Assembly: GCA_022813865.1 (NCBI GenBank)
Contig: JALDZX010000016.1
Span: 186,001-250,000 of the forward strand
DNA from: Xylographa opegraphella
Lineage: Eukaryota
Reading direction: 5' to 3'
DNA: 64,000 nucleotides
The position numbers were made by a program, and so were the translations under genes. Below the pieces are notes generated by a model. It ran no database searches and was not told the DNA's origin. It saw nothing but the letters and a program-made list of their open reading frames with translations. Below are positions 1 to 21,123 of this stretch, one piece after another (within the stretch, counting starts at the first letter, position 1; every line of letters starts with the position of its first letter).

Positions 1-3000
1 GCTTTCTTGGTTCCAGGAAGGTCGGACGATCTACCAGTCTGGGGTAGAAGCGGTGCCGGCTCAAACTGCTTGACTGGAGCCGACCTCACAGGCGTAGGCT
101 TTGAAGACGTTGTACCGCCCGGTGGTAAGAGCATGTTCAGAAGCTTACGCGGAATGCACTGAAATTTCAGACCGCCAACGACACCAACAATAGTGTTACC
201 ATCGAATATGAAAACATCACCCTGTTTGACTCCTGCTTCCTTTGCATCTTGCATCTTTACATACGCACGATAGGTCTTGCTGGCAGAAATGCTACTGAGA
301 CGCATAGATCGCCACCCATGAGATATGTATACCGAGTCATTGGAGTCGGTCGCGTCACTGGCATTCACTATGAAGCCAGATAGGTGAGCCAAGCTGTCAA
401 TCCACCGTGGGTTCAGAAAATATGTTCCGTCGGTGCTTGCGCCGCATTTGAAAGTGACTTTGGAAACCGCCTCGAAGTTGGCACTGTCGAGGATAACTTC
501 GTCCATGCCGCGATATTTGTCATCGTAGTCGACCAGAGCTTTGAAAAGCTTGTAAGCCAGTCCTCGCCCAATTTGGTGGACCCCTCTGCCACCTTTGACA
601 TCGTTCTCGAGACTCTGTACGCGACTTTCAATAAGATAGCGGCTTTGATTCCACTTAGCAAGCCACTTGTCGACGCTGCCGTATTTGACAAGGCACTTGG
701 CATGATCAAGCAGTTTCTTACCCTGTTCTGAAACACTGAAGAATTCCAGCTGAACACATTTATTGTCAGCTATGGCGGAGATTTGCAGTAGCTGAGGCTT
801 TGCAGTTTCGCTGGCTAGAATCAGTGGCTTGCTGACCTCCATCGAGCAAACATCCATGTTAGCGGGACCAGAACCGGGTCGCATTTGCTGATTCAGGTAA
901 TCCGCGATGACCAGAGCAGCATCGGCATATATCGACGAGGGACAAAGTCCAACACCATTTACCAAGTGTCCTTGAATGGCAGCTCGGAGGCTCGGCTCAG
1001 AAAGACTCGATTGGGTGAGAAGTGTTGCGGATGTTGGCGAGATCTCCTCTTTTAGTATTTGTTGTACTGTAGTGGTCGATAACTTCGGCTTGGCCGGTTC
1101 AGCTTCTACCGTAACAGTTGTTGGCAGCACAACATCTCCTTTAGTAAGACACCAATTATTCTTGTAGTCAATCCAGTACTTCTTCAGGTCAAAACTGTAC
1201 GAAGGAAGCGTCAGGAGTCGATGTGAATCATTGTAATCAATATGAAATTCGCTCCATTTGATTGATACGCCCTGGCAGCAAAGGTTTGCCGCACTCTCGG
1301 ATAGGGTCTTCCAAGGGTCTTCATTCCTACGGAGGGAAGGGGCTGTAATCGTCTTGTAGCCCAGAGTAGACTTAATCATTCCGAGACAAACAGGGTGAGA
1401 GCCAATCTCAATCCAGACACTTTCTTCAGTGACTATCTTCTCTTTCTGAGCTACAGTGATGGCTGCAAGGAAATCAACTTTCTCGCGAGAGTGGCGGCGA
1501 AGGTAACTTGCGTTGAACTCTGCATTAGTTATGACCTTCCCAAGAAGTGGCGATATCACTGGTATTGTTGGCTTTGCAAAAACAGCAGACCTCGCTTCGA
1601 TCTCGAAGGCATCCAGAATCGGGTCAACTTGGGAGGTATGAAAAGCAAATGGAACATGCAATTTGATGGCTTTCAAGCCTTCTCTGGCTAGACAACTAGC
1701 TATTTCATCAATAGCTGACTGGGTACCGCCAAGCACGAGCTCTTCCGATCCGTTGATACAAGCAATCTCGAAGTCCTTACCGTTCAGGGCTTTGGTGACG
1801 GTAGAGGCTGACGACTTGACGGCAAGCATCGCGTGGGAGCCGAAGACACAAGCTTCTTGTAGAACCTTGGCACGACTTCCAACAAGATAGATTGTATCGC
1901 TGATGGAAAGCACTCCAGCAATATGAAGAGCGGCAAATTCTCCAAGGCTGTGCCCGATGACAGCAGCAGGTTGAATGCCCCAAGAGATCCACAGCCTAGC
2001 CAAAGCGATCTGAACACATGTGAGGCCGACCTGGACGAGCTGTGGGCTGAGGGTGTCGACATCGGAGACACTGCCATCGATCAACGGTCGAAATGACTCA
2101 AAGCCATGTAACTGTACGATCTTCTCGAAGCGTAGCAGATCATCTCTGAAATGAGCTGAGGTCTCGAACAAGCTCTTTCCGAGAGAACAGTAGGCGGAAC
2201 CCTGCCCAGTAAAAGCAAAGATCGCTTGTGGGTGACTCCCGGGAATAGAAGTGAATTGGTTGTCTATCGATGAAAGTAGCAAGTCTTTTGCAGCAACGAC
2301 GTCCTGGACCGCGAACGCAACTCGGTAGTCAAACAGCTGACGTCGTACTGTGGTAGTATACGAAAGATCGGCCAAAGCTGTGGTAGGGTTATCATCCAGA
2401 TAAGCGGCAAGGTTCCTGATGTTTCTCTGCAACGATGTAATAGATTTCCCCGATACAGCGACGACCATCGTGGAGCGGGGATCCTGGGTCTCGACTGGAT
2501 GCGTAATTGGACCTTCCTCGAGCAGCATGGCAGTGTTTCCGCCTGCTGCGCTGAAATTGTTGAGAAATGCCAGGCGCCGCTTGCCATCTTTATGAGGCAA
2601 CCAAGTCGTGGGTGCAAATGGTATGTGTACATTTCGTGCTTGAAGGTTATTGGGGAAACTTTCGTTCAAGATGCCACTTTTGATACCCACATGTGGAGGA
2701 ATGGCATTGTGCTTTAACATCATCAGAACTTTCATTAATGCCATCACACCAGCTGCAGCCTCTCCATGGCCGACATTTGCCTTCACAGAGCCCACGTAAA
2801 GAGGATTCGTTCTTCGCTTTCCATGTTCTGACGCGAAGACGTCTGTTACTGATAGCATCTCGTTGTAGTCGCCAGCCTGCGTCCCAGTCCCATGCATCTC
2901 GACATATTCCACCTCATGCGGATCAATTCCTGTTTCGTCGACAACCATCTGATAGAGGGCCCCTTGCTGATCTGCATTCGGGTGGGTGATCGATACGGCA

Positions 3001-5215
3001 TCAGCAGAATGATTTGTTTTCACATTAAGAATAACCCCGAAGATGTTATCCTTGTCCATCACAGCGTCTTCAAGTCGTTTCAGTACGAAACTGCCAACAG
3101 CATCAGCTCGACAGTATCCGTCGGCCTCATTATCAAATGTCTTGCACCCTCCGGTTTTGGAAAGGAATTGGCCGCGACTGAGTCCAGCAAAGATATCAGG
3201 ATTAGTCAGAACGTTCACTCCACCAGTCACAGCCGTATCGCAATCACCAGCCCACAGCGAATTGCACGCAGCATTCATCGCAGCAAAGCTTGAACTGCAG
3301 GCTGTGTCGATACTATAGCTGGGTCCGCCAAACTTGAACTAGAAGCCCCCAGAGTCAGCATCGCTGTATTTTGACGATTAAGAAATTCTCTACGATCAGA
3401 GACTGGTCATCGGCTCGGTTTCTTGTGCAAGCGATGTCCTCCGTCGATTACGCAATAACGATTTGGATAAGGTCACTTACGAAATAGTTCACCCGCCCGG
3501 GTGTAAAAGCGCGAATGCCACATGGTATGAAATATGTATCGATATCTTGAGATGCGTTTACCTCCCTCCAATCATCGCTTGCTTGACCATAGAAAGTTCC
3601 AATCCGATGAGATTTCGTGGCTTGCGTTCTGTTTTTCACCCAGCCCGACATTTCCAGAGCCTCGTATGCAGTGATCAAGGCAAGACGTTGCATAGGATCA
3701 AGATTCTTTGCTTCACGAGGTGACATATTGAAGAACCTTGGATCAAACAATCCAGCTTCGTCGATAAAACAACCATAAGGTGTAAGAGTCGTGTTTTTGG
3801 TCTTTCCACTGGGATCAAAATGTGCCTTGATATCAAACCGATCTGGAGTGACCTCTCTATGCACGTCCAGTCCCTTTTGAAGCAGTTCCCACAATATTTC
3901 TGAGTCTGCAGCGCTCGGAAACCTACCAGCAAGGCCAACAATAGCAATTTTGGAGTTTGAGCTTTTCGATTCGCGCGACGTTTTCTCGGTCTTATTTGGT
4001 GAGATATCTTTGAATATGAGCTCGTGAGCATTGTCTGATAAGTTTATCGATGATAGAATCTCATCAACTGTGCTGGTGGAACCCAGAGTAAACAACGATT
4101 GTTCATTTCGGGATAATTCTGCAAGAATAGCATTACAAGCGTTGGAAAAGTTGATTGGCTTGGTGAGTATCTCTAGCAAACATTGCTGAAGTAGTTCATT
4201 AGTGGTTGGAGCGAAGAAACGCTCACCATCCGCCGTGGAGAACATCGGTATTCTCGGCGATTGAGTTCGCATATGTTCACAAATTCTACTGCCATGCATG
4301 ATTTTGCGGACAACTTCGATGTCGTACAGATGAGGTGCACTGACCATACCAATAGAGCTAGGCTGGATGATTGGAGGATCGACCTCTCCAAACATCTCTT
4401 TCAGACTCTTCAGTGTTGCCGGTGGTCCACTGACCACGGTGTCGCTGGACCAAATTGCGCTGACGTATGCCTCACTTGAGGTTGGTAGTCTCTAGTTAGG
4501 TTTAGTTTGTCTCCAATCTATGTCACTGGGGGAGGTATGTTAACTTGAGATTGATGAAATTCATAAATTGTCTTTTGCGCTCTATCGACATCAACCCCTT
4601 TCATTGTCATAGACCAACAACATTCTCCAGAGCCTGCGAGTGCAGACCGAGGTACGACTAACTCAGACATGTACGAAACTTCAAGGCCAGTTCGAAAAGC
4701 GATAGCCACCATCTCCGCACCGATGGAAGGAAGGTCAGCAACACCATGAGCACATGAAACAACGACAGCGGCCAAGAGTCCGCTCCCGAGGCCATATATC
4801 CTGGTAATGCCTTTCTCGTTTGATATCCAGGGATTTTGGGAGAAGTACCTAATTTAGCGTAAGCGAAGCACAAAACTCCGCATTCTTGGGAGTATGGTAA
4901 TTCTAAGAAAAGAAAATCTTACCATATGAGTGCACCAATCTGATAGATGCAGGAAAGTGAATACTCAACTGCTGGAACTATAGATGCTGTATCATCTTGA
5001 GACTTTTCCACAAGTTCGAAAAGGGCTGAAAAGTCGGGAATTTGATCTTGAACGGACTGTGGTTGTCGACTGATCTCTTCACGTAAGAGTAGATTGGCCT
5101 GCTCAAAGAAGGACGCAAGGAGAGTGTTGCCTCTATAATGAACTATGGATTTCAAGGCTAAGATGTGAGATCGACTATAATCTTCCAACAACAATGCAAT
5201 CGCTCTAGTTTTCAT
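1..5215 (-). CDS. Iterative non-reducing polyketide synthase (SAT-KS-MAT-PT; ACP and any TE lie beyond the left edge), melanin/naphthopyrone-clade-like (group II/III) PT domain; partial
   Basis: Exons 5215-4923, 4848-4545, 4491-3481, then 3338-<1, which I translated by hand and found open. KS motifs: DTACSSS (3308-3288), EMHGTGT, KANVGHGE. MAT motifs: FTGQG, GHSLGE (1955-1938), VPFAFH. PT motifs: GHLVNGVGLCPSSIYAD (His 968-966), WIDSLAHLSGF, YISHGW. Ends in a Pro/Ser/Thr-rich linker at the window edge. Confidence 0.97.
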
Positions 5216-5978
5216 GTTGAATACACTCGAAAACAAAGTTGAAAGACACACGTGATCGAGGAAAAGGGGCGTCGACTATACAGACGATATTCACGAATTA
5301 GGGCTGGCGTGATATAACGATGGTCCGGTTATGAGTCGGTTGTCGCTTTGCATTCCATGATGACAAGAGCAAGAATAACACTATGGGCCGAAATCACCAA
5401 GCTGTATCCGCAACACGGAGCCGCGGAAAATAAAACATGACCATCATGCCGTTCACCGACATGTAAGCAATCGCTGAACGGATTCACGAGAGATAAGACA
5501 CGACAACAAGCAGCCAGAAGATACCATTGCAACTAGTGTCACCATGGTCTCCTGCTTGAAGATACAGGTCTCAGAACATCCTGGCCAAGGTCCGTAACGA
5601 GGTCGAGATTCTCTGCAGTTGTTTGACGGAGTACACTAAGCGTCGATCACATCGGTCTGCGGTCTCTTGGTCGCTTTGTTCCATCAACTCAGCGGTGACC
5701 ATGGTCTATGCCGGTCCGGTCTATACGATAGAGATCACTTGGAACAGCCAGCATAGAGGATCCTCGGAAGCCAGGTATCTTACCCTTGCCGCTTTGGTAT
5801 TGCATGTCTGTATGCCGGAGCTTGTATGTCTTGCGACGCTAGATCGGATAGAAGCCTAACATAGATATCTCTTACTTTGTTCTGCATGTACTTCACTAGT
5901 AGTCAGGGATGCAAACGCCACAGTAAGCTACCCCCACACTACAATGCATCGGACCTCAGCTGTATAATCAGGTTATTC

Positions 5979-6013
5979 TCGATCACCGAAGATTCATTTG
6001 TGTCGAATATCGA
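5979..6013. promoter_or_regulatory. Two AflR-type TCG-N5-CGA sites in the divergent PKS/SDR promoter
   Basis: TCGATCACCGA at 5979-5989 and TCGAATATCGA at 6003-6013. Looser TCG-N5-CGG matches at 5471-5481 and 5652-5662. Confidence 0.65.
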
Positions 6014-6205
6014 AGCGGCAGGGATTTGGCAAGATGAGGCACAGGAAATATTCTGTTTCGAATTTAGTAAGGCCTGTCATGCGGTCGAACTGTGCCGATT
6101 TGGGGTGATAATCTGCAGCTTTTGGGTGAACCCGGAACGACAGACTCGCAAAGCTTTCATTTTAACAACAATCAAATCCTGGTTGATTTACCTCAAGAGA
6201 ACATC

Positions 6206-7049
6206 ATGTCGACCTCACAATTGGCAGGAAAGATTGCTATTGTGACAGGAGCTTCCCGCGGTATAGGAAAAGGAATTGCGCTGGACCTCGGGGCTCGCGG
6301 AGCTTCAGTTGTGGTCAATTACAACAGTAGTGCTTCTGGGGCAAAGGCTGTTGTCGAAGAGATTGAGAAGCTTGGATCCAAAGCAGTAGCCATTAAAGCC
6401 GATGTTTCATCCTTTCCCGATATCGAGAAGCTCTTCACTGAAGCTCTTGCACACTTTGGCAAGATCGACATCGTTGTCTCGAATTCTGGCGTCGAACACT
6501 TCGAGACCATTGAGAAGGTCACCCCGGAGCAATTCGACCACATCTTTAGCATCAACACCCGAGGTCAATTCTTTGTAGCACAGCAAGGCTACAAGCACAT
6601 CTCTCATGGAGGCCGCATTGTTATGATGTCGTCCATTGCGGCCAACATACGAGGTCTCGCTGACCACGCGATCTACTCTGCCAGCAAAGCAGCGATCGAA
6701 GCCATGGTCCGCTCTCTACCGAGCGATTTCTCTCCCAAACGAGTCACGGTCAATGCGGTGGCGCCGGGCGGGATTGAATCAGACATGGCGAAAGACAACG
6801 GTTGGAGATATATTCCCGGCGGAGATCCTTCGATGAGCCTGGATGTCGTTGCGGCAGCATTAGCCGAGAATTGCCCACTCAAGAGATTTGGAGTTCCTCA
6901 AGATGTAGCTCGAGTTGTCTCCTTCCTTGTCAGCGAGGAAGGCGGTTGGATCAATGGTACGTAGTCAGAATTCGCCACCATCTATCTCAGCTAACATTGT
7001 CAACCTCCCAGGCCAAACGATTACTATCTCCGGGGGATCTGGGAAGTGA
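6206..7049 (+). CDS. Short-chain dehydrogenase/reductase, 1,3,6,8-tetrahydroxynaphthalene reductase (T4HNR/Arp2)-like
   Basis: Exons 6206-6956 and 7012-7049. Motifs: TGASRGIG, VVVNY, NSGVE, NTRGQFFVAQQG, SSIAA, catalytic YSASK, NGWRYIPGG, WINGQ. The pattern is closest to fungal hydroxynaphthalene reductases. Confidence 0.92.
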
Positions 7050-9260
7050 ATCAATATTGGACGACAAAAGGCCATAGGAAAGAGGGTATGCAGCGGTGGA
7101 GAACACAGCACATAGAGGAAGTTGACGTGTGGTGCGCGGCCATGCGGATGCTTGACAATCGTCAGACACGCTAATGGGCGGGCTTGGTTCGCCCGAAGCA
7201 GGTAGCTTAGACCATCGAATAGAAATGTACCTTAGTACTGTTCGTCAACCTTCGGATAGCGTGAAGCAGTCTTCCGGTGCAGATCCCGGAAGCTGGAGGT
7301 GCACCTTGGAGTGGGCTTGGGGCCCGTTTACAGCCTCACAAATTTTCTTACATGAGTAGACGCGCTAGGTGTATATTCCGTACCGTGTATTGTTGCCGCG
7401 TAACGCAACTTAGTCTGGCGGGGTACAACGACTGACAACCGTCCGTGTGTATTGTATTACTGAGCCGTGATCCAACCTCGGCATTTATGTATTCGAAACG
7501 GATAGAGACGCAGGACGAAGGGAAATTGGCGGTGACACTTACGTAGCACCCGGCTCCATACTGTGATGACAGCGGGCGCTGTCTATAATTGTGTCCCCAC
7601 ATAAAAAAGGCCCATCTAAGGCTATAGTGTGGTCAGCCGAAGGCCACATGTCCCGTCAAGAGCCTTGAACAGGTTGGAAGCAAGGGTCTCGACCGAACCG
7701 CACTCGATAGCAGCAGCACGCTACGTCGTGGGACGAATAGCGTAGGAGCGGTCACTCAAAAACGTGTTGAAATCAGCGACGATCTTCTGTTTCCTTGGAG
7801 ATTCATACGCATGTAGGCTCTTTCAGCCCCCCATCCGCTGCAGTTGTGGGAACAAGGATACTGATAGCGAGCATGGACTGGGACGCAGTTGCAGAGTTCG
7901 TGATGCATGTGAGATGTACCACGTTCGACCATAGTAGGCATTAGTCAAGGAGCACTTCGTTCAGGGTCGTCGTCAGCAGGATTCTAGCTAATAGTGGTTC
8001 TCTTGGTGACCCCCAAATCGAATGGTCAGAAGCGGTCTCCGCATCCCGCATTCGACAGCCGCACCGACGAAGGAGCGCATCGTCAAGCACACCCACCCAT
8101 GGCCATGCAGCGGAGCCATCTGCGTGTTGCGTGTTCGAGACGATCCTGTCCAGTGCAGTCAGCCAGCAGCAGCCACTGCCTCTTGGAAGCAGGAAGGTGG
8201 AGTGATGTAACAGTGCGCAAGAACACGAGGGCCGTGCCTTGCCGGCCTATAGATGGACACCTCGTTGCTGCTATCGAACCAGCCTGCCTTTGAACGTGGC
8301 AGGAAGAGTGGTGGACGAGCAGGCCACCACCTGGTGCACGGTAGACGGTGGAGTTTGGGTTGCGAGCTTGCTTGCAGCTCACCCTGGCTCCGAAGCCGTA
8401 AGACGTAGCCTGATCTAACGGCGGAAGCGAAGCAAGGGGCTGCAATCTCTCCGATTCTTGGCGTGCTAAACGGGTCTCTAGGTCAGATACGGTAAGCGTC
8501 TCGTCTCGGCCGAAGCGAGAGGCTGGGATTAGACTAACAAATACTACTATGGTAAGTACCGTACTTCGTTACTTACCATACCAACTCCCTTATTTAGACC
8601 AGTGCGGGCCGACGCCGAACGCCTCCGCCATCTGCCCGCAAGCGTGCCGTCGCTGTGACGAAGGTGAGGTAGGGTAATAATGAATGTCAGTGGTGAGGAC
8701 TCTGAGGAGTCGGTGAGCTAAATCATGCGCTGTAACATGATCTTTTAGCTTTAGGGTCCATGGGCCGGTGGGCGGCCACTCCGTCTCGATTCGACGCTGA
8801 ATTATCCTTGATTCCCGTGGCGTTATCTGGCATGCAGATGACACCGATTGATCACTGGAAAGCACTGAGAATGGCATCCAAGGTAGGACAAGATGATAGA
8901 CTCGTTCACCACCTCATGTAGCATTGTAGCTTGGCCTTTACAAGCCTAGTCGCTACCTACCTTATCCTCCGAGAGGCCCCCTGTCGAGCCCTGACGGGCG
9001 AGTCTGTATAGTTTAGTATGACTGATGTTCTGACGGGGGTTCCCGTCTTCGTCGTTGGCTGATAGGACGTTCTGCTTTCTTATCAAACAGTGCCATTGCT
9101 ATAGGAATTAGCGTGTCGGCCACTGGCTTGATGACAGGATGCGCCGCTACAACACGCCTTCGTAGTTTCACTTCGGTCTTCGCTGGCACTGGAAGATCTA
9201 GGACTACTATTAGTACCCGTTCCTACTGAACTTCACACTAGAATACTGACCAGCTCAAAG

Positions 9261-10842
9261 ATGACCGACGCCCCCATCCGAACTCGAAATGGCACTGGGA
9301 AAACACCGAAGTATCGTGCATCATGCGATTCGTGCTACGAGGCCAAAGTCCGCTGCTCCCAGGCGAGGCCCAATTGTGCTCGATGTCTCAAACAGGGCTT
9401 CGAGTGCATCTATGGCATTTCACTACGGGCCGGCAAGCACCGTGCGGAGAGCTTCAGGAACAGCGCCTCTGTCTCGTCGGATAGAACAACGCCGGTTAGG
9501 ACAACGCCGGTGACGGCCACTACCACGAGTCCCGTGGATTCGACAGTGGCACTGCTCCCACCAACACAGTCTCCGCTCGAAGACACTGAGATCCCCGATT
9601 ATTGGCAGCAACAACTTAAGGACTGGGTCGTCGAGAGCTTCGGCGTACCAGGTGCACCCAACGCCGTTCCGACACACCACTTTGATCCTCATCATCAGTT
9701 CTTGCCAGGGCCTGAAAACACCCACGGGTTGCACTCGATGGGACCGGAGTCTCTGTCGTTCTCCGATATTCGAAATGTTGAATTTCCTGATATCCTCGAT
9801 GAAGTACGTTACCCCAGATCTTCGATTAAACCTTATTTCAAGCGTACATTACTGCCAAAAGTCTTGCCAGCGTTCACCGATTGTCCTCTGTCGTCATTCA
9901 CAACAGAAATCTCTGAAAGAATTTTGTTGAAAATTTCGAGTTCGAGTTATTTCCATAATCTTCTATCAATTTGATAAAAATCGAAAAACTTGATACTCTT
10001 ACTGTCCTACCACGATACTGTTGCATTTGAGTGCTCTAAAAGATCACAAAAATTCATAACATGCTACGGTGACGCAGATATTAACTATTCTGCTAATTAG
10101 CCCTTCCCAGCACAAATCAACCACATTTCGCAAGACCCAGGAGCTCGGTTCGGCCTCCACCCCTAACTATTGCCCGACATCTAATACTCTCAGCGATGGC
10201 TACCTCTCGTGCTCGAAGCCTCACAGTGACCCAGGCTCCCCAACATCCCAACAGAGGCGACACCGACCCAACCCCTCGCAAGAGTCGACCACCTGCCACT
10301 GTTTCGAACTCATCTTCACCCAGTTCCCCCTGTTCCAGTCCGCCAACCGCCCATTCGACATCGAGCTCGCGCAGGCTAAGGAAGCCATGTCGCTTTGCGC
10401 CCGTGTTCTCTCCTGCTCTTGCAAGCGAAAAGACTACGTGTGCGTCCTCACCGTCAGTCTCCTCCTCGCCTGCATCGTCTCCGTGTTCGAACGCGAGTTC
10501 ACCTCGACCTACAACGTCTCCGACCCGCCCACCTCGGCTTCCAACGACGATTTCATGCAAGTAGACGGGTCACCGACCCCTCTTGAAACGACGCCGCGGT
10601 TCTCCTTTGGCAAATTCCAACTGGACGTCGAGGATGAGTGGAAATTGAAGAAAGAGGTCGTGTGGCTGCAGATCCAGAGGGTGGAGGGGCTCGTCGACTC
10701 CTTCCGGGAGATGATCCGGCGCGGCGGTGTCGCCAGGGAGAACTGGGCGGGCCAAGGCAATGCGTGGGAGGGCTTGGCGGAGGTGCTGGCCCAGAAGGTG
10801 GAGCGACTGCGGATGGATTGGGGGGCGCTCCGTCGAGCATGA
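9261..10842 (+). CDS. Zn(II)2Cys6 pathway-specific transcription factor, AflR-like
   Basis: Exons 9261-9803 and 10111-10842 (424 aa). Binuclear cluster CDSCYEAKVRCSQARPNCARCLKQGFECIY. The C-terminal region (CARVLSCSC...LLACIVSVF...FSFGKFQLD...VVWLQIQRVEGLV) resembles the AflR-family domain. Confidence 0.9.
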
Positions 10843-12210
10843 GCGATAGACCATGCGCCATAGACAGCTATACACTATAGACAATCCATAGAGTATACGG
10901 GGGCGGATACAATAACGAATTCATGAACCCCCTTTCATCGAGCACACCACAAACCTTGGCTTTTCCATGAACACTAAGGTAGGCCGACCCCCAATTGCTC
11001 GAGAAACAGCAACCTTTGATTTCGCACGCCCCAAGATCTTGCAATCACTCCCCCGTCCCCAGAATCCCTCACGCAACCGGCTCCCGCGAAAAGGATCGGT
11101 ATCCGGTCCCGGAACGGAATCTTGTGCACCCGTCCGGCCGAGACCGAACAACGCGCGAGCAGTACGGCAACCGTGCTTACCGTTACCCCGTCCCGGAGGC
11201 ATGAGTGAGTAAATTGTAATCCCAAACAACCCGCAGCAAAAACATCCTTCATGCGCCCCGCCGCGCGAACCTGAGAGCTCGGACGCCCCGCAGCTCCACC
11301 TCGTCGAAAGTGGGGACCGACCTCTGGGATATCAGCCACCAAAAAAAAAATCCTACGAAGCCCCCTATACCCACTCGGAACGCAGCAGCCCTCGTAGCGG
11401 AAAGGAAATGGTATGGCGGGGTGGGGAAAGGCCAAGAACGTCAGCAAGACCGCCCCCATTCTACGCGCAGCCCAGAGGCCTTCATATCGAAGGCCAAGCG
11501 ACTACGATATCGATGCCGAAAGGGCGGTCACGTCGTCGCGAGGCAGCAATGCCAGAGAAGCACGCCGTGTCAGACGGCCAGGCAGTGGATGATCCTGCGA
11601 TCCTTTGGCACCACGCTTATCGCTGGGCTGGGAGCGCCGGTAGCGCTGACACTGGCGCGGCTCCGCTGTGCCGTCGAGAGCTTCTCCTGCTTTCTTATGA
11701 TACAAGAATTGCTTTTTCTTGCGACGACGATGAGGAGAGCGGGACGTTGCAGCTATGCAGCGCGGGCGACGGGTTGTCAGCGCTGACGCGGAAACGGTTT
11801 CTTGCGGTGTGGAGGTCGTAGCTCGCTTAGCTAGCCATGGGATCTGCGGAGGCTAGTGTTTCGCTCTGAAAGAAGGTGTGTGTAACCTCAATCCCCTTTA
11901 TCGGGCCTTTACATCTTATGCTAACTTTCTCGGCATAATAGTACGCAGAATTTGATTTTCGTTATTCATGGAATTACAAAGCTTCCACGGAAGTGATTAT
12001 TTGTATATCGAAATGAATGACAAAGGATCTGTTTCCAGACCCTTGAATACCAAATGCCTGTTTCGGTACAATTACCTTGGCGCTAGAATACGGTTGACGA
12101 AGCGAATCGCAAACACCACATCACAACACGCCCTCCAAATGCAGAACAGCCGAGAACTTCACCAAACTTTCCACCGCTGTGCAATGGCGTCTGCAAAGTT
12201 ACTATATTCT

Positions 12211-14250
12211 TTAACCTCCACCCTCCATCTTCATAAACAACTTCTCCCTCTTCAAGAAAACACTCCCAACTAAGCCCACCGCCCCAGCCACGACAACCAA
12301 GTAGTAAATTCTCGATATCGTAGTGACAATTGCATCCAGCGCCACGACCTGCAGATCCGCTGGCAAAGTCGCAAATACATTGCTGCCTGCGCCCGTCACG
12401 ATATCATGCAGTTGAGCAGAAGTGTATCCGTGGCCCGCCAATCCCTGAGTCAGGAGATCGTAAGCCAAATTCTGGTAGATGGTCCCCGAGACGGTAAGTG
12501 CTATAACAATGGCGCCGATTTGCGCGATGTTGATGAATGCGATAGCTGCCGGAATGTGTTGCGGAGAAGTCATGCCGATCTTTGCGGGCGCGATGGAGTA
12601 AGCGGCTTGCGAGGTGGAGCCGCCACCTATGGCAATGAGGACGGAGTATCCGTAAACGGCGGAAATGGACGTCGAGGACGTGACGGTCGTCATGAGCGCC
12701 CCGCCGATAAGGGTAAAGACGCCCGCAAAAACAAACCAGGGCATGTAGTACCCAAATGCCGGCATAGCACCGCCGTTAAGCAGTATAAAGAAGACGAGGA
12801 GGAAGATAAATGGTAGAAGACGAACGGCGGCCTGCAGTGCGGAGTCCCCGCGGGCGAACTGAAAGTATATGGGAATATAATATATGGGAACAAAGATTGC
12901 GGCGCCGCTGCAGGCGGTGAGGATGTAAAGAAGAATCATGCTGCGGGAATGGAGCAGAAACGTTGGGAATATGCGATTCGCTTTGGGAGAGAATGGGGGA
13001 AATGCTTGAGAGATGATGAAAGCGATAAGGGTAACGCCGAAGAAGACGAGGCAGATGATTGTGCGGTAGTCGTTCCACAGCCAGATCGGGCCGCCAAAGG
13101 TAAGGGCCAAGAGAAGCGTGGTGTAAGCGGCAGTATAGAGGAGGATTCCGAGCCAGTCGAAGGTTTTGAGCTTTTGCAGGCGTGGAACGTCGGGTTGAGG
13201 TTGAAAGCCCTTGATGAGGAAGAAGTAAACTGGGGTGAAGAGAGCTCCAATAACGAGGTTAATGTAGAAAGACTTTTTGGAGTTAGCTTTTGGCTGCCTA
13301 CTTGGTTGTTGGTGAGAATGAATGCGTACCCATCGCCATGTAGCACTACTATCCGCAAAGCTACCTCCTATGACAGGTCCCAAAATTGTGCCTAGACATG
13401 CGCTTCAGTATATACTGGAGAGGTAATCCTTGATGACATACCAGCTCCCCATACGACACCATTCAAAGCCATGTATAGAGGCCGCTCGCGAATTGTAGTG
13501 TAGATTGCTAGAAGATTAAGTCCTCTTTCGGTTATCATTAGCAGATTCTTTCAGGAATCTTTGTACCCAGATACGTACCCCAGATACATTCCTGCACCAC
13601 CAGCACCAGCGATGACTCGTCCAATAACCAGAGCATTCATATTAGGGGCTCCTCCACAGAGCGCACTGCCGACTTCGAAAAGCAAAATGCTGCCTAGCCA
13701 TAGCCACTTCACGTCGAACATACCATATGCCATGCCACTGTAGCATGTTCAGCAACAAGAATCGTTATGAAACTTGATATACATACATTGGTAGTATCAA
13801 CACCACAGAGCCCAACGGAAAGCCCGAGCCGATCCATGCAAGCTTACCTGGCTCGTGAAAGCTTTCGACAACGGCAGCTTGAATATCGGCGACGATTGTA
13901 TTATCGAGGCCATATAGAAAGCTACCCGAATTGATTGCAATTGCAACTAGCACCCACTATAGCAATGCTCATATTAGCCGTACACCGCCCGTGCAGTGAG
14001 GCTAGATGATTACCTTCCAGCCCACAATTGCACGCTTGTTGTCCTCTTCGTTGGGGCTGGCAGCAGATGCGGGATTGCTAGTAGGTTCAGCCGTGCTTTC
14101 ATGCTCGTCAGCGCCATGGAGCAATTCGCTTTTTCTGACCTGAGCCAGAGAGCTATCTTGGTTGTCCACTGCTAGCTCCGGAAGGGCACTTGGGTGTTGG
14201 TATTCTTTCTCCGACATTGCTGCTGCTACATGTACTGATGGGTCTGACAT
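12211..14250 (-). CDS. MFS drug:H+ antiporter (DHA2/14-TM type) secondary-metabolite efflux pump
   Basis: Multi-exon (14250-14014, 13956-13787, 13737-13579, then further exons to 12211). Motifs: FLYGLDNTIVADIQ, LFEVGSALCGGAPNMNALVIGRVIAGAGGAG, LGPVIGGSFADSSATWRW, YYIPIYFQF. Many hydrophobic helices. Confidence 0.93.
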
Positions 14251-14369
14251 ACTGGTTGATGGCGATGAGACTTCGAAAGTATGAAGTTCGCCATTCTTCG
14301 AGGAGGCGCGCGCTAGTGATCTGCTACTTCGTTAATGTTTCTTGTGTAACGTCGCGCGACCTTAACTCC

Positions 14370-14674
14370 TCGCACGCCGATGCGTCCCTAAGTCCGAAAT
14401 CAGCATTCCATTAGCGGAGGGATGAAGCGCCGCATCTTACATGTTTAGCGTACAGTAAATGCGGACCCAGAACGAGATCTATTTTCGAGCTGGCCAGCAC
14501 CAGTTACTCCACTAGGAATAAATGGATCATGCATGGCTTGGGCCTCGTAAGTTGTCACAGCGTTCCGGCCAGCGAGTGGACTCTGAGATGTGGGTGCGGA
14601 GATAAAGGAACGGGCGCCTTTCCCTTTCTAGACCGAAGAAGACAACCCCTGCAAGGCAGTTTTTCGATAACCGA
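14370..14674. promoter_or_regulatory. AflR-type TCG-N5-CGA sites in the divergent MFS/FAD-oxidoreductase promoter
   Basis: TCGCACGCCGA at 14370-14380 and TCGATAACCGA at 14664-14674. Confidence 0.6.
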
Positions 14675-14861
14675 AGCCATACCACAAGGCTGAACGATAA
14701 CAATGGATGAAGCCAAGAATGAAGAACACGACTCATGCACGGGCAACCCATAAGCATACAAGGGGCCATTAATTCAGCATCAGGGAAACGACCAGCAGTG
14801 AAGCATTTCTCACATAATCGATTTGTGTGTTTTAGTGTTGCTGTTTACCTCTCAGCCTATC

Positions 14862-16397
14862 ATGCACTCCAACGGACACAACGCCATCAATTCTGCCATC
14901 GTGGAGCTGCAAGAGACCCTGCACGATTCAAAGGTGTTGACACCGGGGTCGATTGATTACGACAACTGCCTGAAAAGATGGGCGCTGCAAGCGCAGAAAC
15001 CAGCAGTATGTCGAGTCGCTCGATAGACCAGAAATTTGACTGAAGCTTATTAGGGTGCTGTTGTGAAAGCCACATCTGCAGAAGACGTGGCAATAGCCCT
15101 CAAGGTAGCACAAAAATATGGTATCCAAATGGCCGTTGGAGGGGGTGGTCACGGGACTAACGGTTCTTCGTCGACTGATGGGGGTATTCTGATTGACATC
15201 ACACCGATGAACAAAGTCACCGTCGACATAGAAAAGAAGACTGCAACTGCAGGTGGCGGAGCACGGTGGGAAGAGGTCGACGTTGGGCTTGGTGAGGTAG
15301 GCCTTGCTGCCGTCGGCGGTCGAGTCAACAACACTGGCATTGGCGGTCTCACGCTTGGTGGTGGCTATGGCTGGCTCTCAAGCAAGTATGGTCTGGTAGT
15401 CGACAACCTCTTGTCCACTGAGGTAGTCCTAGCAGATGGCCGAATTGTGACTGCCTCGAGCCGCAAGAATCCGGATCTTTTCTGGGCTATTCGTGGAGCC
15501 GGGCAATGTTTTGGGGTCACGACCCAGTTTCTTTATCAAGCCCACGATCTCGCTTACCCTGTTTGGGCTGGACAGCTGATTATCAAGCACGACAAATACA
15601 AGGCCGTGGTCGATTTCATCAACGAGTTCCTCGCGAAGGTCGACGGAGAGGCCTCTATGACTTGTGCTTGTGCAACAGCACCAATTTCAGGATTCATCTG
15701 CTCGCTCTTCTATAATGGTCCTCAGCATAAAGCGGAGCAATTCTATGCACCGTTGCTGGCATTGGAGCCTGTATCAAATACCACAAGGGTTATGCCCTAC
15801 TGCGAGGTCAACGCTATGACGAACAAGCAGGTGCCTTGGGGCTCCAATCGTATTCTTCGTGGAACCTCTTTCGTCCCTCCGCTCTCCGTAGAATTTATGG
15901 AGACCATGATGGACACCATAAAGAACTACAGAGCGAACCTGATCGATAACGAGACCTTGCCGCCAAGCACATTTATGTTCGAACTGTCTGATAACAGGGT
16001 GATACAGAAGGTGCCTCATGAAGCAATGTCTTTCGCCAATCGTGGGCCTCAATGCCATATCATGCTGTTCTTACAATGGGGCAGTCGAGAACAAGACGGC
16101 TACGTTCGTGAAACCGCGACTCGCATATCGCATATGTGTGAAGCTGAAGTAAAACGAACGGTGAAAATACATGGTAGTGCGTACGATTCAAGGGCCGTCG
16201 GACAATATGGAAACTATGATGGTAAGATCATCTCTTTAGCCACGATAAAGGGCTCTAACAGAAATGCAGGCCTATTAGCTCCGGCTATAGACATCTTTGG
16301 AGCAGAGAAATTGGAGAAGCTTTCCGTTCTTAAGGCGAAATTTGACCCTACCAATGTTTTCTGCACTTCTTATGCTATACCAGTTGCAAAGGCTTGA
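14862..16397 (+). CDS. FAD-linked oxidoreductase (VAO/BBE-like FAD_binding_4 family)
   Basis: Exons 14862-15005, 15054-16221, 16270-16397. Motifs: AVGGGGH (His in the position that binds FAD covalently in this family), TGIGGLTLGGGYGWLS, GLVVDNLLS, NPDLFWAIRGAG, and a BBE-like tail YGNY...LKAKFDPTNVF. No signal peptide seen. Confidence 0.92.
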
Positions 16398-16965
16398 CGA
16401 TGATTACCGTGGCTTACCTGCTAGACTGAACTTACACATTACTCGAATGTCTTTTATGCAGTACCCATGATACGTGACGCGAAGAGATCAGTTAAATAGT
16501 AGTGATAATATGGATTGTTTTGACAAAGTTTGATACGATTGGCAAACGTCAGAAGCGATGCGGGGTCAGCCTTACATTTTTCGAAGTGTCCTAACCGGAA
16601 TTGGTCAAGTAGTGCTTCAGGACTCTAGGAGGATGTCCTGCTAAGCATAGGTAAGGTAAGGTACCTCAAGGTAACTAAGGTACGGAGGTAACCAATATAG
16701 AGAATTATCCCAACCATTGCGGGCCGCTATTCTAGACGCTTCGGGCGGCTCCTGTGTGGAGCACCAATTACCTAATTTCTTGTCCTTCCAGACCATCGAG
16801 AGCCTACCACCCAGCGACGATGCAATTACAACTACCGCATCTTACAAAGATATAGTGTTTATAGAAGAGTAGGAGTTGGTTTCAGAGTGTGAGGAGATGA
16901 TCTTCAAGAAATCTACCGAAGCACATGATGACATACATATTCCTATTCTATACTCCATCGCACAC

Positions 16966-17721
16966 CTAAACCTCCGCCGCGATCTCCTTCGGATCCACCA
17001 ACGCCGCAACAGCCTGCTCCTCATGCGGGTGAAACTTGAAGACTTTATCAAAGTCATGCTCGTTCCATCTGATCAGCGTCGTGATCCCGCCCCACTTCCA
17101 GACGCCCTCTACCTGCCGGTACGTCAACGTGATCATCGCATACCCATGCCCTTTGACCTCCACCTCCTTCTTCTCTAGCGTTTTATATCGCTGGTGGGCC
17201 GCCCGAATCTGGTGTTGGGCTTCGATATGCGTGGAAGACAATTTGCGATACTTGGACCCGCCCATTAGATGCTGGGTGTCGATCAAAGGGTCACCGAGAA
17301 ATTTGGGGTCGGACATCATGGCGACGAAAGAAGAAGCTGGAAGAGCTTCATCTTTGAAGTCGTTGACCGAGGCGTAGTTGACCTGTGAGAGTGTAATATT
17401 CGTAAGCTACCCCGGCTGGTCTGGGGTGGAGACGAGAAGCAGACCTTTATTGTTGGAGCAAGGATACTGGCTAGACGGGTCCAATCCTGGCAGATATAAG
17501 AGCTGGACGAGTTTATTAAATTTTATGTGCAGAAATTACCTTAGAGTCATAGCTCTCGGCCCATTCGAAGGTAAGTTCTTGACAAGCAAGATATTCTGTT
17601 ACTCTGTATTAGACGATCTGGATGGAAAATCTCACAATACAGCAGGACAGGAGACTTGTGAAAGGAGTAAGAGGAATGAAGGTTATACACCTTTGAAAGT
17701 GAGCTCGGTGTCGTTAGTCAT
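16966..17721 (-). CDS. Scytalone dehydratase-like protein (NTF2-like fold)
   Basis: Exons 17721-17691, 17595-17540, 17486-17445, 17382-16966 (181 aa): MTNDTELTFKEYLACQELTFEWAESYDSKDWTRLASILAPTIKVNY...LGDPLIDTQHLMGG...HQIRAAHQRY...KGHG...GVWKWGGI...RWNEHDFDKVF. Confidence 0.93.
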
Positions 17722-18144
17722 TGTGCCCTGTTAAAACGTGAACAATAATTTGCGTGATAAATGTATTTATCTGGAGGTGCACAACCAGTCTATGGCAAGA
17801 TACAAATATATAGTCTCCTGTGATCTCGTTCTGTGCCTTGTGCAATAATAAATTCAATTTCGAGTAAGAGAAGTCAAGTTCTAATGGTATACTAATCCAT
17901 AGATTGCGAGGCTTGTAGAAGTGGATTGCATTCAACGCGAGCAAATGCGGCATAAGCTCTCGTAATCTGCCCGAAGTCGCCTGTTGACATTTTGGAATCC
18001 TAAAACATGCGTACTACTCCTCTCTCTCGCTGATCGTAAGGTAGGTATCATGGCCCAATAACGCGAAGCAGTGAAGAATGTTAGCGGCAATCCTGGTAAG
18101 CGAGTCATACTCTCAAATAGGCTAGTGCTCACCCCCTGCATTTC

Positions 18145-18175
18145 TCGATCACCGACTCAAGCCGTCGGTGATCGT
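18145..18175. promoter_or_regulatory. Inverted pair of AflR-type sites in the divergent dehydratase/O-methyltransferase promoter
   Basis: TCGATCACCGA (18145-18155) and TCGGTGATCGT (18165-18175). Together they form a perfect 11-bp inverted repeat CGATCACCGAC-N7-GTCGGTGATCG. Confidence 0.65.
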
Positions 18176-18370
18176 AACCATGAATAATCGATAGTCGCTT
18201 CACTTTCCCGCACAGCTGGTGGTATTTGCTTCATGCGTGCCAAGCCTACACCTGGGTGAGTACGAAGGCTGCTCCGATATTTCATGGATATCACATAGGG
18301 GTTAGTTCTAGGGCATGAGTGGTAGAGACCGAGAACGTCGCCTCAGTGTACTGCCTGCTAACCTGTCATT

Positions 18371-20039
18371 ATGACCATCTATACTAATGGACAGACGAAG
18401 TCACCATCGGTTGCAATCGATGCCCAGATCAAAGAACTCTTGAAGGCAACCGAGATTCTGAATACTGCCGTCAAGACAATAGCTGAAGAATGGACCACAG
18501 CTGGGGGCGACGGCACCTTGATTGGGGATACCCGGATGGTACTGCCAAGTTCTTCGGGGTATAATGCCCAGAAGACGATACTGGGCGCTATGGGCAAGAT
18601 CCAAGAGCTCGTTGCTATCCCTCAGATGAAACTGATCGAGATGTCCGAACAATTTTATGAGAGTAGGGCGTTACACATCGCTGCTGAACACCGAATTGCC
18701 GACCTGCTCTCAGGACACGACGACGAAGGTGTACCAATCAGTGAACTGGCGAAATCAACCGGCCTTGACTGTGACAAATTATGTCAGTATACAAGGTTTG
18801 TTTGACAACGGGTAGAACACTTACTGTATGCAATAGGCCGTATCCTGCGTGTGTTGTGCTCCAGTGGCATATTCAAGGAAACGACACCACAGACTTTTGC
18901 AAACAACAGAATATCGGCTGTGTTGGCTCACAATGAGAGCTTCCGCTCCTACATCCTTGTGTTGTAAGTGTATAGAGAGCCTTCACCATTCGTCTTATTT
19001 AATTACTTATCTTGTCGAAACGGAACACATAGCGAAAGTACCATTTTCTATATCTGACATTTTCATGATCGTAGTTCTATCTGTCATTATCAAGTTGCCG
19101 GAGCGTTACCGAAAGCCATGAGAGACACGATAAAAGGCCACTCATCGAAAGTGAACGAGACAGCGTTCAACATCTCCCATCAAACAACAGACTCCTTTTT
19201 CGAATGGATGGAAACCAAGGTACCTTCAGAGGACGGTAAATCGCTGGTCGGACGGCCCGAACTACCATATTTTTCATCAGCCATGGTCGGTGTTGGCAGA
19301 GTCAGCAGCACGGCGCTCATCTACGACTATCCATGGTCTTCCCTGGGCAAAGGGACAGTCGTTGATGTGGGCGGAGGAGTCGGTCCGCTTTCAGAGATCT
19401 GGTTCCCTAAGTACGAAGCTAACTTATTCGCAGGAGGTTTTGCTCTGGAGCTTGCCAAGCAATACCCAGATCTTCAGTTTGTCGTTCAAGACCGTGCGGA
19501 GGTCATTGCGAAGGGCGTTACGCTCTGGACCAAAGAAATGCCAGACGCTCTGAGCTCTCATCGGGCAAAACTAATGGCGGAAGACTTTTTCAAAGTCAAC
19601 CCGGTCAAAGGCGCAGAAGTATATTTCATGCGTGGCATAATGTAAGCAGTATCAAGTGCTGCTCATGCTATCAGGCCTGGTAAGATGCTGACATGTTCGT
19701 CCTTGTAGGCATGACTGGCCGAACGCCGAAAGTATTAAGATTCTCAAAGGCATCGTTCCTGCCATGACGGCTAAGTCGCGTGTTGTTATTGCTGAATTCA
19801 TCGTCAATAATACACTTGGTGATCCAGAGCTTCAACGGGCGCCATGGCCGTTGCCTGCCAACTATGGGATATATCCGCGTTATACATACCAACGTGATCT
19901 CGTTATGATGTCTCTATTCAATAGCATGGAGCGAACGCTGGATCAGTTTCGTGAAATCATACGTGGCGCGGGATTGGTGATTGAACGAGTCTGGGAATGT
20001 AGGAGCCAGACAAGCTTGATCGAGTGTAGATTACCGTGA
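18371..20039 (+). CDS. SAM-dependent O-methyltransferase (Methyltransf_2, fungal secondary-metabolism type)
   Basis: Five exons from 18371 to 20039. Dimerisation region ESRALHIAAEHRIADLL...RILRVLCSSGIFKE...FANNRIS. SAM-binding VVDVGGGVG, then VVQDR, DFF, and catalytic MHDW spanning the last splice junction, then DLVMM...ERT. Confidence 0.93.
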
Positions 20040-21123
20040 TCACGGTCCTAATCCGACGCATTCAACCTTGCTCGATAAAATTGACCAGCGTACAATATTA
20101 GTCTGTTTATATAATTCTCACTGAAAATATGATCCGACGGAGCATAGCTCACAAACATTTCTTGTTCGTCCTGATGCACGCTTAATAGCATCCGACGCTT
20201 CTTGTAAATGTGTACGGCCAGGAGAAACGCAGGCTACTCCGCTCAGTCAACAATAATAGTTTTATGATGGAACAATCATATTATTTGCGCTTTTCTCCAC
20301 GGACGTTGAAGAGATCGTGACCGGGAACCACGAGCGTAAAGATTCTGAGCATTTTGGCTGAATTACGTTGTAAGTCTCGACCATTAAAATTTCGAGATTG
20401 ACATCGTGGACAACTCCCCTCTTGGGCAGCGTTGTGATCGCCCCCTTGAAGTCTTCGTGATAATTGGTAAATAGATCGCTGCTTGCTGTGCCCGTATTAT
20501 TGCGTGCTGCTACACCAAGAACAGCTAGAACCTAGTCCTGATACAGTAGAGCGTCCAAATCCGGAGCGGAACAATGTGTATCCCGGATCTCTTTCCAAAC
20601 AGCTTTCGAGCCTCGTATGTAAAAAGCAGCAAGTTGCAATGAAGCAACAGAAACAGAAGTGGGACTTTATTCTTACAGATCTATGAAGTTTCAGAATAGA
20701 ACAAGAAATGACCAACGTCTTGAAAGTATATCTGCTGGCCCAAAGCTTTATAACCAGTTCCGTAGACTAGGATTGTTGTTGAGACCACCCCACATTTTTA
20801 ATATTGTGACCAAGTTGCATTACATCTACAACAGTGCTATACATCGCAAGCATGAAATGCACCCGTTTGTTGTCGGTCGTTTGTGACGGGGAGCCTCAGG
20901 CTGTCATCAATCAAACTTTACTCGTGGTTGATATACCATCCGCTCTGACACCCTTCTAACCATTTCGAGGTTTGTAGTCTGGAGCACCTTACGGACGAAC
21001 GTAATGTGAAGGCAATACCAGACAGCTTAGCTGAATGAAATAGGTGCGGCTAGTCTAGGTCCCTGGCTCAATCATTCATCTTGGAAACACTCCAACCGCG
21101 GGCTCACGTCGGGGACTTTAGTC

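What the first reader, a model, noticed from the sequence alone, without database searches (positions are those of the whole stretch)
1..20039. Melanin-like enzymes packaged as a regulated, exported NR-PKS cluster with O-methyltransferase and FAD oxidase
Seen: seven contiguous intact genes (NR-PKS, T4HNR-like SDR, AflR-like TF, DHA2 MFS, FAD oxidoreductase, scytalone-dehydratase-like, O-MT), ending sharply before housekeeping genes at 21.1 kb. Known: an SDR plus scytalone-dehydratase pair removes an aromatic hydroxyl, both in DHN melanin and via MdpC/MdpB in anthraquinone pathways. Canonical DHN-melanin loci use a Cmr1/Pig1-type regulator and typically lack an O-MT and efflux pump. Mdp-type clusters use group V PKSs, whereas this PT reads like group II/III (GHLVNG-LCPSSIYAD, YKNNWCLTKG). 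Inference: the product is a diffusible, deoxygenated, O-methylated naphthalene, naphthoquinone or naphthopyrone-type compound. I cannot match this gene set to a characterised cluster from memory.
Basis: partly seen in the sequence, partly recalled or inferred. Interest (0 to 1): 0.8.

Follow-up and report, generated by a model that had tools for sequence, protein, structure and literature searches.

The report
Uncharacterised naphthalene-type fungal polyketide cluster
Seven intact neighbouring genes in a likely lichen-forming fungus form a polyketide cluster, separate from the genome's melanin-like genes and with core genes also clustered in several Penicillium and Aspergillus species, that is predicted to make an exported, methylated naphthalene-type compound.

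Summary
All seven genes are intact, and the PKS is complete (SAT-KS-AT-PT-ACP-ACP-TE, 2,145 aa), ending 1.6 kb left of the window.

It is probably not the melanin locus. Contig C180 holds a second PKS with dehydratase, reductase, regulator and two multicopper oxidases. All three divergent promoters of the cluster share one TCG-N5-CGA site, which points to co-regulation.

Orthologous PKS and dehydratase genes lie together in 8 of 12 named fungi; 4 of these also have the O-methyltransferase there.

The PKS forms its own clade, sister to group V plus stand-ins for group XI, and shares their cysteine-less SAT. Its PT carries the C2-C7 cyclisation signature.

It has the same enzyme types, but a separate PKS clade, an aldo-keto reductase and acyltransferase absent here, and no listed transporter.

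Likely product: a deoxygenated, O-methylated derivative of acetyl-tetrahydroxynaphthalene; untested. Verdict: new variant of a known kind, testable in culturable moulds.

The parts
1..5215 (-). NR-PKS, SAT-KS-AT-PT in the window; ACP-ACP-TE continue to G000:C68:184,411; 2,145 aa, 5 exons; SAT motif reads GLGSG (no Cys)
5977..5989 (+). shared promoter site (TCG-N5-CGA type) in the PKS/SDR divergent promoter
6003..6013 (+). second TCG-N5-CGA site in the PKS/SDR promoter (not the extended consensus)
6206..7049 (+). hydroxynaphthalene-reductase-like SDR, 262 aa, Ser/Tyr/Lys triad kept
   Evidence: (best PDB hit T4HN reductase 1ja9, E 9e-82)
9261..10842 (+). Zn2Cys6 transcription factor, 424 aa, weak AflR-type C-terminal domain
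   Evidence: E 4e-9; AflR E 0.023
12211..14250 (-). MFS transporter, 590 aa, MFS_1/TRI12-like
14370..14380 (+). TCG-N5-CGA site in the MFS/FAD promoter (not the extended consensus)
14662..14674 (+). shared promoter site in the MFS/FAD divergent promoter
14862..16397 (+). FAD-binding BBE-type oxidoreductase, 479 aa
   Evidence: (best PDB hit EncM, E 4e-45)
16966..17721 (-). scytalone-dehydratase-like protein, 181 aa; Tyr and two His catalytic residues kept
18143..18155 (+). shared promoter site in the SCD/O-MT divergent promoter
18165..18177 (-). inverted second copy of the site, one mismatch
18371..20039 (+). O-methyltransferase, 461 aa, of the GedA (emodin O-methyltransferase) family
   Evidence: (its P. 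malachiteum orthologue vs GedA, E 5e-100)

Best explanation
This is a seven-gene non-reducing polyketide cluster, likely co-regulated by its own zinc-cluster factor and separate from the genome's melanin-like locus, that is predicted to make and export a deoxygenated, O-methylated naphthalene-type compound. Inferred steps: (1) The PKS primes itself from malonyl-CoA, since its SAT lacks the cysteine, closes the first ring C2-C7 in the PT and the second in the TE, and releases 2-acetyl-1,3,6,8-tetrahydroxynaphthalene (AT4HN), as group XI Apr1 does. (2) The SDR and dehydratase remove one ring hydroxyl. (3) The GedA-family enzyme methylates a phenol. (4) The FAD enzyme oxidises the ring to a naphthalenone or naphthoquinone. 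(5) The MFS exports the product. The cluster has no aldo-keto reductase, so the acetyl side chain would probably not be reduced to ethyl as it is in asparvenone. Shown: genes, domains, motifs, promoter site, linkage in relatives, tree position. Not shown: expression, product, order of steps.
For: Intact genes. Second PKS-TF-SCD-reductase-oxidase locus on C180 and an Ayg1-like hydrolase on C172; the window PKS is 45-50% identical to the C180 PKS. Five TCG-N5-CGA sites in the three divergent promoters against a mean of 0.62 in shuffles, reached by 0 of 2000 shuffles and ranked first of 832 spaced palindromes. PKS and SCD orthologues co-located in 8 of 12 named species, 4 of them with the O-MT as well. 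PT residues match the C2-C7 type defined in PMC5386248. The neighbouring characterised groups II and XI release AT4HN or T4HN (PMC9239057; PMC10289310).
Against: No product or expression data. The PT signature does not fix chain length: it is identical in a TerA-like PKS of G000 and nearly so in a wA-like PKS. The O-MT's nearest solved relative acts on an anthraquinone, and the sister clade includes the anthraquinone-making group V. In Penicillium the PKS and O-MT span five locus tags, not seven genes, so the full set is not conserved. SDR, TF, MFS and FAD orthologues in relatives were not tested. In 2 of 12 species PKS and SCD lie on different short contigs, and in 2 no SCD was listed. The TF's AflR domain is below cut-off, and the AflR site sequence is recalled.
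Confidence: 0.6

Rival explanations
1. It is simply a rearranged group XI (apr) naphthalenone cluster making asparvenone-type compounds.
For: Five enzyme types plus a TF are shared with the apr table (PKS with the same domain order, T4HN reductase, SCD, O-MT, PF01565+PF08031 oxidase). The SAT is cysteine-less in both, and the window clade and group XI stand-ins lie on one side of a 99.9/100 branch.
Against: AU test rejects window clade plus XI stand-ins to the exclusion of group V (p 0.003) and window clade plus the Lobaria pair (p 0.002). The group XI PT-entry motif seen in the paper's alignment is absent. No aldo-keto reductase, acyltransferase or NmrA gene lies here. The FAD gene is not head-to-head with the PKS, nor SCD with the reductase, as described for group XI. 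None of the species listed in the paper's Table S1 is among the 12 named species of the window clade. Caveat: group XI was represented by stand-ins and group V by one long-branched sequence.
Confidence: 0.15
2. The PKS makes a longer backbone, a heptaketide naphthopyrone or an octaketide anthraquinone released by its own TE, and the SDR/SCD pair acts as MdpC/MdpB do.
For: Sister to the clade that holds group V. GedA-family O-MT. The SDR also scores highly against versicolorin reductase (E 6e-78).
Against: The PT has Pro where group V has Thr, and Pro where group V has Gly, and keeps bulky residues at the finger-region positions, which argues against C6-C11 or C4-C9 closure. No metallo-beta-lactamase TE, anthrone oxidase or anthraquinone reductase gene is present, and PMC9890505 says the anthraquinone must first be reduced. 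A heptaketide cannot be excluded.
Confidence: 0.15
3. It is a second, tissue-specific melanin or wall-pigment system, like the PKS13/PKS15 pair in Cladonia, both of which carry SCD and T4HN reductase.
For: PMC10289310 reports two such lichen clusters and the BcPKS12/BcPKS13 division of labour. The window and C180 hold the genome's only two SCD genes and only two close reductases.
Against: The PKS falls outside the group II set. The cluster has no multicopper oxidase but has an O-MT and a transporter. Methylating a phenol would hinder oxidative polymerisation (inference).
Confidence: 0.1

Closest known systems
Group XI apr naphthalenone cluster, Aspergillus parvulus (Mosunova et al. 2022, PMC9239057)
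   Same: SAT-KS-AT-PT-ACP-ACP-TE PKS with a cysteine-less SAT, T4HN reductase, scytalone dehydratase, O-MT, PF01565+PF08031 oxidase and Zn2Cys6 TF; present in both lichens and Aspergillus.
   Different: PKS in a separate clade. No aldo-keto reductase, O-acyltransferase, NmrA or second FAD oxidase here. An MFS is present here and not in the apr table. Different head-to-head gene pairs.
Oidiodendron maius 'unique' reductase/dehydratase locus (proteins 39552 and 116220, beside nrPKS Oidma1_51005), uncharacterised, noted in PMC9239057 as outgroup to group XI
   Same: By eye, the window SDR and SCD share distinctive stretches with this pair rather than with Apr6/Apr5. This was not computed.
   Different: That locus is described with a P450; O-MT, MFS and FAD genes are not mentioned. 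Its PKS could not be compared.
DHN-melanin cluster of the Aspergillus fumigatus type (alb1, arp1, arp2, ayg1, abr1, abr2; abr genes recalled)
   Same: NR-PKS with TE, hydroxynaphthalene reductase and scytalone dehydratase.
   Different: No multicopper oxidase or Ayg1 in the window. In G000 this description fits C180 plus C172.
Cristazarin (crz) cluster, Cladonia metacorallifera (PMC10289310)
   Same: Lichen NR-PKS of the same domain order with O-MT, T4HN-reductase-like gene, TF and FAD oxidase; proposed AT4HN route.
   Different: No scytalone dehydratase or MFS in its table; its FAD enzyme is of the COG0654 type; Crz7 is placed near group IIa. Crz7 itself was not in my trees.
Group V emodin/chrysophanol clusters (mdp, cla, ged)
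   Same: Reductase plus dehydratase deoxygenation; GedA-family O-MT; cysteine-less SAT.
   Different: The window PKS has its own TE and a C2-C7-type PT; no separate lactamase-type TE, anthrone oxidase or anthraquinone reductase.

Membership tests
Group XI nrPKS / apr cluster | PKS falls inside the group XI clade | tested here: not met
   Own clade 99.6/100, sister to V plus XI stand-ins; AU p 0.003 and 0.002. Stand-ins were two Lobaria immixta paralogues, an Agyrium rufum protein and one unnamed protein, picked by motifs from the paper's alignment, not Apr1 itself.
Group XI nrPKS / apr cluster | FAD oxidoreductase gene upstream of the PKS on a shared promoter | tested here: not met
   The SDR holds that position; the FAD gene pairs with the MFS.
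Group XI nrPKS / apr cluster | SCD and T4HN reductase present | tested here: met
   but they are 10 kb apart, not head-to-head
Group XI nrPKS / apr cluster | Aldo-keto reductase, O-acyltransferase and NmrA in most members | tested here: not met
   None among the seven genes or the flanking ORFs scanned. Not searched elsewhere in G000.
Group XI nrPKS / apr cluster | PKS releases AT4HN | not testable with these tools
   needs expression
DHN-melanin locus (group II or III PKS) | PKS in group II or III | tested here: not met
   AU p 0.024 (II set), 9e-8 (III set), 0.0003 (C180 PKS). Group labels rest on source names and recalled sequence features. The group II rejection is the weakest.
DHN-melanin locus (group II or III PKS) | Multicopper oxidases or Ayg1 linked, or sole PKS/SCD/reductase set of the genome | tested here: not met
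   These lie at C180 and C172.
DHN-melanin locus (group II or III PKS) | Knockout gives an albino | not testable with these tools
   needs genetics
Group V (emodin family) | No TE domain; separate lactamase-type TE | tested here: not met
   TE present
Group V (emodin family) | PT with C6-C11 signature (Thr and Gly at the diagnostic sites) | tested here: not met
   Pro and Pro in the window; Thr and Gly in the one group V-like row
Group IV (aflatoxin/cercosporin type) | PT finger region G1491/M1495/M1498/A1499 and T1354 | tested here: not met
   A/F/L/V and Pro. No verified group IV member was in the trees.
Any MIBiG entry | Gene-for-gene match | not testable with these tools

The most novel reading that the evidence does not exclude
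The PKS defines an unnamed group of aromatic PKSs, sister to groups V and XI. It keeps a built-in thioesterase and C2-C7 cyclisation but has already lost the SAT cysteine, so it would show the state from which the anthraquinone synthases arose. Its cluster, shared by lichen fungi and culturable Penicillium and Aspergillus, makes an acetyl-bearing methoxynaphthalene or naphthoquinone class that has not been linked to genes.
Probability: 0.4. Interest if true: 0.68.

Novelty: new variant of a known kind. Interest (0 to 1): 0.5.

Why it matters
Very few lichen clusters have been linked to a molecule by experiment (two in 2022-2023, per PMC9239057 and PMC10289310). This one has orthologous core genes clustered in culturable moulds, and it has a candidate regulator and binding site, so it can be switched on and its product identified directly. 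If the tree holds, it adds a branch at the base of the group V and XI synthases and shows another re-use of the melanin reductase/dehydratase pair. The chemical logic itself is already known from the apr cluster, which limits the surprise.

Tried and rejected
1. Changed SCD pocket as a sign of a methylated substrate. The window SCD has Ala and Ile where the solved enzyme has Ser and Asn. The Asn change is also in the C180 SCD, and both changes occur in Cladonia and Umbilicaria SCDs of other clades. Rejected as not diagnostic.

2. Both occur in a TerA-like PKS. Rejected.

3. Satellite genes under the same promoter site. G000 has 8 exact matches, 3 in the cluster, and the reversed control gives 2. 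Of the other 5, 4 lie inside long ORFs and 1 (C90) is intergenic. Treated as chance.

4. Metagenome scan with the SCD alignment: 6 loci from 140 candidates, 38-50% identity, none with a PKS match. No genomic context for true orthologues was obtained.

5. Expression: no RNA holder listed.

6. Earlier findings of this scan: none listed.

7. Atlas search of the PT gave only generic PS-DH clusters.

8. The SCD tree (106 columns) separates the window family from the C180 SCD, but its deeper branches are weak (49.9/62 to 88.2/84), so it is not used as firm evidence.

9. I recalled naphthyl compounds from A. californicus as a candidate product. Searches gave no support: one search listed 0 papers, and one search listed 1, not read. 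Only the PKS of that species was seen.

10. P0280 was first labelled aflatoxin-type in a tree; it is Metarhizium PKS1.

Full report
PLACE AND GENES. The window is G000:C68:186,001-250,000, in a 24.7-Mb assembly of 241 contigs. The nearest named homologue of the PKS is from the lichen fungus Xylographa soralifera (91% over the PT region; 93% over KS-AT-PT), so the organism is likely a related lichen former. The PKS runs leftward from 5215 and ends 1.6 kb outside the window. It has 2,145 aa, four GT-AG introns and domains SAT-KS-AT-PT-ACP-ACP-TE. The KS Cys and two His, the AT GHSLG, the PT His/Asp, both ACP serines and the TE Ser/Asp/His are visible in the translation. SDR (262 aa), TF (424), MFS (590), FAD oxidoreductase (479) and O-MT (461) are open with GT-AG introns; the SCD (181 aa) maps in four pieces. 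Housekeeping genes flank both sides. Six of the seven genes form three head-to-head pairs: PKS/SDR, MFS/FAD and SCD/O-MT.

ENZYME IDENTITIES. The SDR's best solved match is T4HN reductase (E 9e-82), then versicolorin reductase (6e-78) and T3HN reductase (1e-75). The SCD matches scytalone dehydratase (E 2e-30) and keeps the Tyr and both His residues in the aligned part. The FAD enzyme's best match is EncM (E 4e-45). The O-MT orthologue from P. malachiteum matches GedA at E 5e-100, the next hit at 2e-42, and a window exon also picks GedA first. GedA/TpcA methylates emodin to questin (PMC9890505, passages). The TF is a clear Zn2Cys6 protein, but its AflR domain is below cut-off.

A SEPARATE MELANIN-LIKE LOCUS. 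G000 has two SCD genes (2 matches from 3 candidates). It has two close hydroxynaphthalene reductases, the window's and one on C180 at 53%; the next-best of 35 matches is 38% identical with E 1e-22. C180:53-73 kb holds an NR-PKS, a Zn2Cys6/AflR-domain TF, the SCD, the reductase and two multicopper oxidases. A PF06500 hydrolase on C172 resembles Ayg1 (the name is recalled). This is the A. fumigatus-type melanin set, so the window genes are not the genome's only melanin-type genes. A third related PKS on C170 groups with a TerA-like protein at 100/100. That C180 makes melanin is inferred, not shown.

CO-REGULATION. I tested the AflR-type palindrome TCG-N5-CGA, chosen from recall. It occurs 11 times in the first 21 kb and 13 times in the remaining 43 kb. 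Five sites lie in the three divergent promoters (2,250 bp) against a shuffled mean of 0.62. None of 2,000 shuffles reached five, and 8 of 2,000 had a site in all three. Of 832 spaced palindromes, those with four or more sites were scored, and this one ranked first. One site in each promoter extends to a 13-base consensus, with an inverted one-mismatch copy in the SCD/O-MT promoter and no other match in the 64 kb. That second count is circular, because the consensus was drawn from these sites. Genome-wide there are 8 exact matches, 3 of them here. Binding by the cluster TF is inferred.

CONSERVATION. The PT-region search gave 1,078 hits among 7,950 candidates and listed 120. The O-MT search gave 21 of 1,978 and the SCD search 20 of 28, with cluster members. 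Twelve named species carry a PKS of this type; A. filifer and A. venezuelensis were assigned by rank or 90% cluster and were not in a tree. PKS and SCD lie within 2-3 locus tags or accession numbers in P. malachiteum (3 strains), P. cf. griseofulvum (3 strains), A. stella-maris and A. venezuelensis. They lie on contigs of identical length in A. oleicola, A. navahoensis, A. filifer and Sclerophora amabilis. That makes 8 of 12. The O-MT is there too in 4 (P. malachiteum _006945/_006942/_006941; P. cf. griseofulvum _011103 and _011107; A. oleicola; A. navahoensis), at 56-58% identity to the window O-MT. Against: A. thermomutatus and Pleopsidium flavum have PKS and SCD on different short contigs, and no SCD was listed for X. 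soralifera or A. californicus. In Penicillium the PKS-to-O-MT span is five tags, so the seven-gene set is not fixed. I did not see the DNA of any of these loci.

PHYLOGENY. FastTree on 63 sequences and IQ-TREE LG+F+G4 on 30 sequences and 1,049 columns of KS-C/AT/PT agree. The window PKS, Pleopsidium, Sclerophora, the Eurotiales proteins and one unnamed protein form a clade (SH-aLRT/bootstrap 99.6/100). It is sister to a clade of one TE-less group V-like PKS and four group XI stand-ins (99.2/100), and the joint branch has 99.9/100. The V+XI sisterhood matches the published tree (PMC9239057, PMC10289310). AU tests on 20 of these sequences, with fast searches, reject joining the window clade to XI alone (p 0.003), to the Lobaria pair (0.002), to the group II set (0.024), to group III (9e-8) and to the C180 PKS (0.0003). 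The SAT, which was outside the tree region, agrees. The cysteine of the GxCxG motif (recalled) is lost in all 8 window-clade rows, all 4 XI stand-ins and the group V row. It is kept in 11 of the other 12 rows and in C180 and C170; Xylona is the exception. Limits: group XI is represented by stand-ins picked by motif, two of them Lobaria paralogues like the two in the paper. Group V is one long branch, no verified group IV member is included, group labels come from names and recall, and no mixture model was used.

CYCLISATION AND PRODUCT. PMC5386248 (passages) lists PT positions that separate ring-closure modes. Aligned to the PksA PT, the window has Pro at 1354, Pro at 1397, A/F/L/V at 1491/1495/1498/1499 and Phe at 1622: the C2-C7 type with no finger region. 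Group XI Apr1 releases AT4HN as main product (PMC9239057), and most group II enzymes give AT4HN or T4HN (PMC10289310), so AT4HN is the simplest guess. The signature does not fix chain length. The tailoring steps follow the logic proposed for the apr cluster, minus side-chain reduction and acylation. All of this is inference.

COMPARISON WITH WHAT IS KNOWN. It works like the apr naphthalenone cluster but fails the membership tests for it: tree position, gene pairing and three missing genes. The same paper notes an O. maius reductase/dehydratase pair beside another nrPKS as an outgroup to group XI and 'a different biosynthetic pathway'. By eye the window SDR and SCD resemble that pair more than Apr6/Apr5, so this family may have been glimpsed there. 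I found no paper describing this gene set in searches. The library lacks most subscription journals, where fungal biosynthesis is often published, and MIBiG could not be searched.

WHAT I READ. PMC9239057: main text parts 1-4 of 7, Table S1 part 1 of 2, alignment file parts 33-34 of 39, supplement searches, and a truncated tree file; figures were not seen. PMC10289310, PMC13062703, PMC9146135, PMC11877519, PMC5386248, PMC12470490 and PMC9890505: found passages only, plus one supplement row of PMC13062703. The PKS family tables of the 100-lichen-genome study (PMC13062703) were not among the held supplements and may already give this PKS a family number.

VERDICT. A real, intact and probably co-regulated cluster of an uncharacterised family. 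New variant of a known kind; interest 0.5.

Noticed in passing
G000:C180:53,000-73,100 (L042, L044, L045): Melanin-like locus of the A. fumigatus type: NR-PKS, AflR-domain TF, SCD, reductase with a long N-terminal extension, and two multicopper oxidases. Only this one close reductase exists outside the window, so no separate T3HN reductase was seen.
   Followed up: partly
G000:C170:53,000-83,000 (L047-L049): TerA-like NR-PKS head-to-head with what reads as a reducing PKS, with flavin monooxygenase-like, halogenase-like and TF-like ORFs nearby; resembles a terrein/6-hydroxymellein cluster (neighbour labels from reading the translations and from recall).
   Followed up: partly
G000:C172:68,030-68,407 (L061): Ayg1-like hydrolase unlinked to either PKS locus; it could deacetylate AT4HN from either.
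   Followed up: partly
window 18371-24677: A database gene call (P0121, 1,650 aa) is identical to the O-MT over its first 449 residues and also carries WD40 domains: probably a false fusion with the downstream WD40 gene.
   Followed up: partly
window 1-5215: A database call of the PKS (P0001, 1,963 aa) starts inside the SAT and lacks the last exon, so public models understate the protein.
   Followed up: partly
window 7050-9260 and 10843-12210: Two long gaps (2.2 and 1.4 kb) hold only ORFs without Pfam hits; splice-like signals near 8490-8670 are unexplained.
   Followed up: partly
G000:C90:144,545 (L063): The only non-coding copy of the promoter consensus outside the cluster lies between a bZIP-like ORF and an ORF that reads like an isocyanide-synthase-type gene (labels recalled, not scanned).
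   Followed up: no
G000:C178:84,000-100,300 (L066, L067): Another PKS region with P450-like, SDR and FAD-oxidase-like ORFs.
   Followed up: no
P0173, P0174, P0123: Penicillium herquei has the SCD orthologue, and Bisporella sp. PMI_857 has an O-MT 56% identical to the window's; neither showed a PKS among the listed hits, so the family may be wider.
   Followed up: no
L056, L057: Two metagenome contigs carry a head-to-head reductase/dehydratase pair with no PKS match within 10 kb.
   Followed up: no
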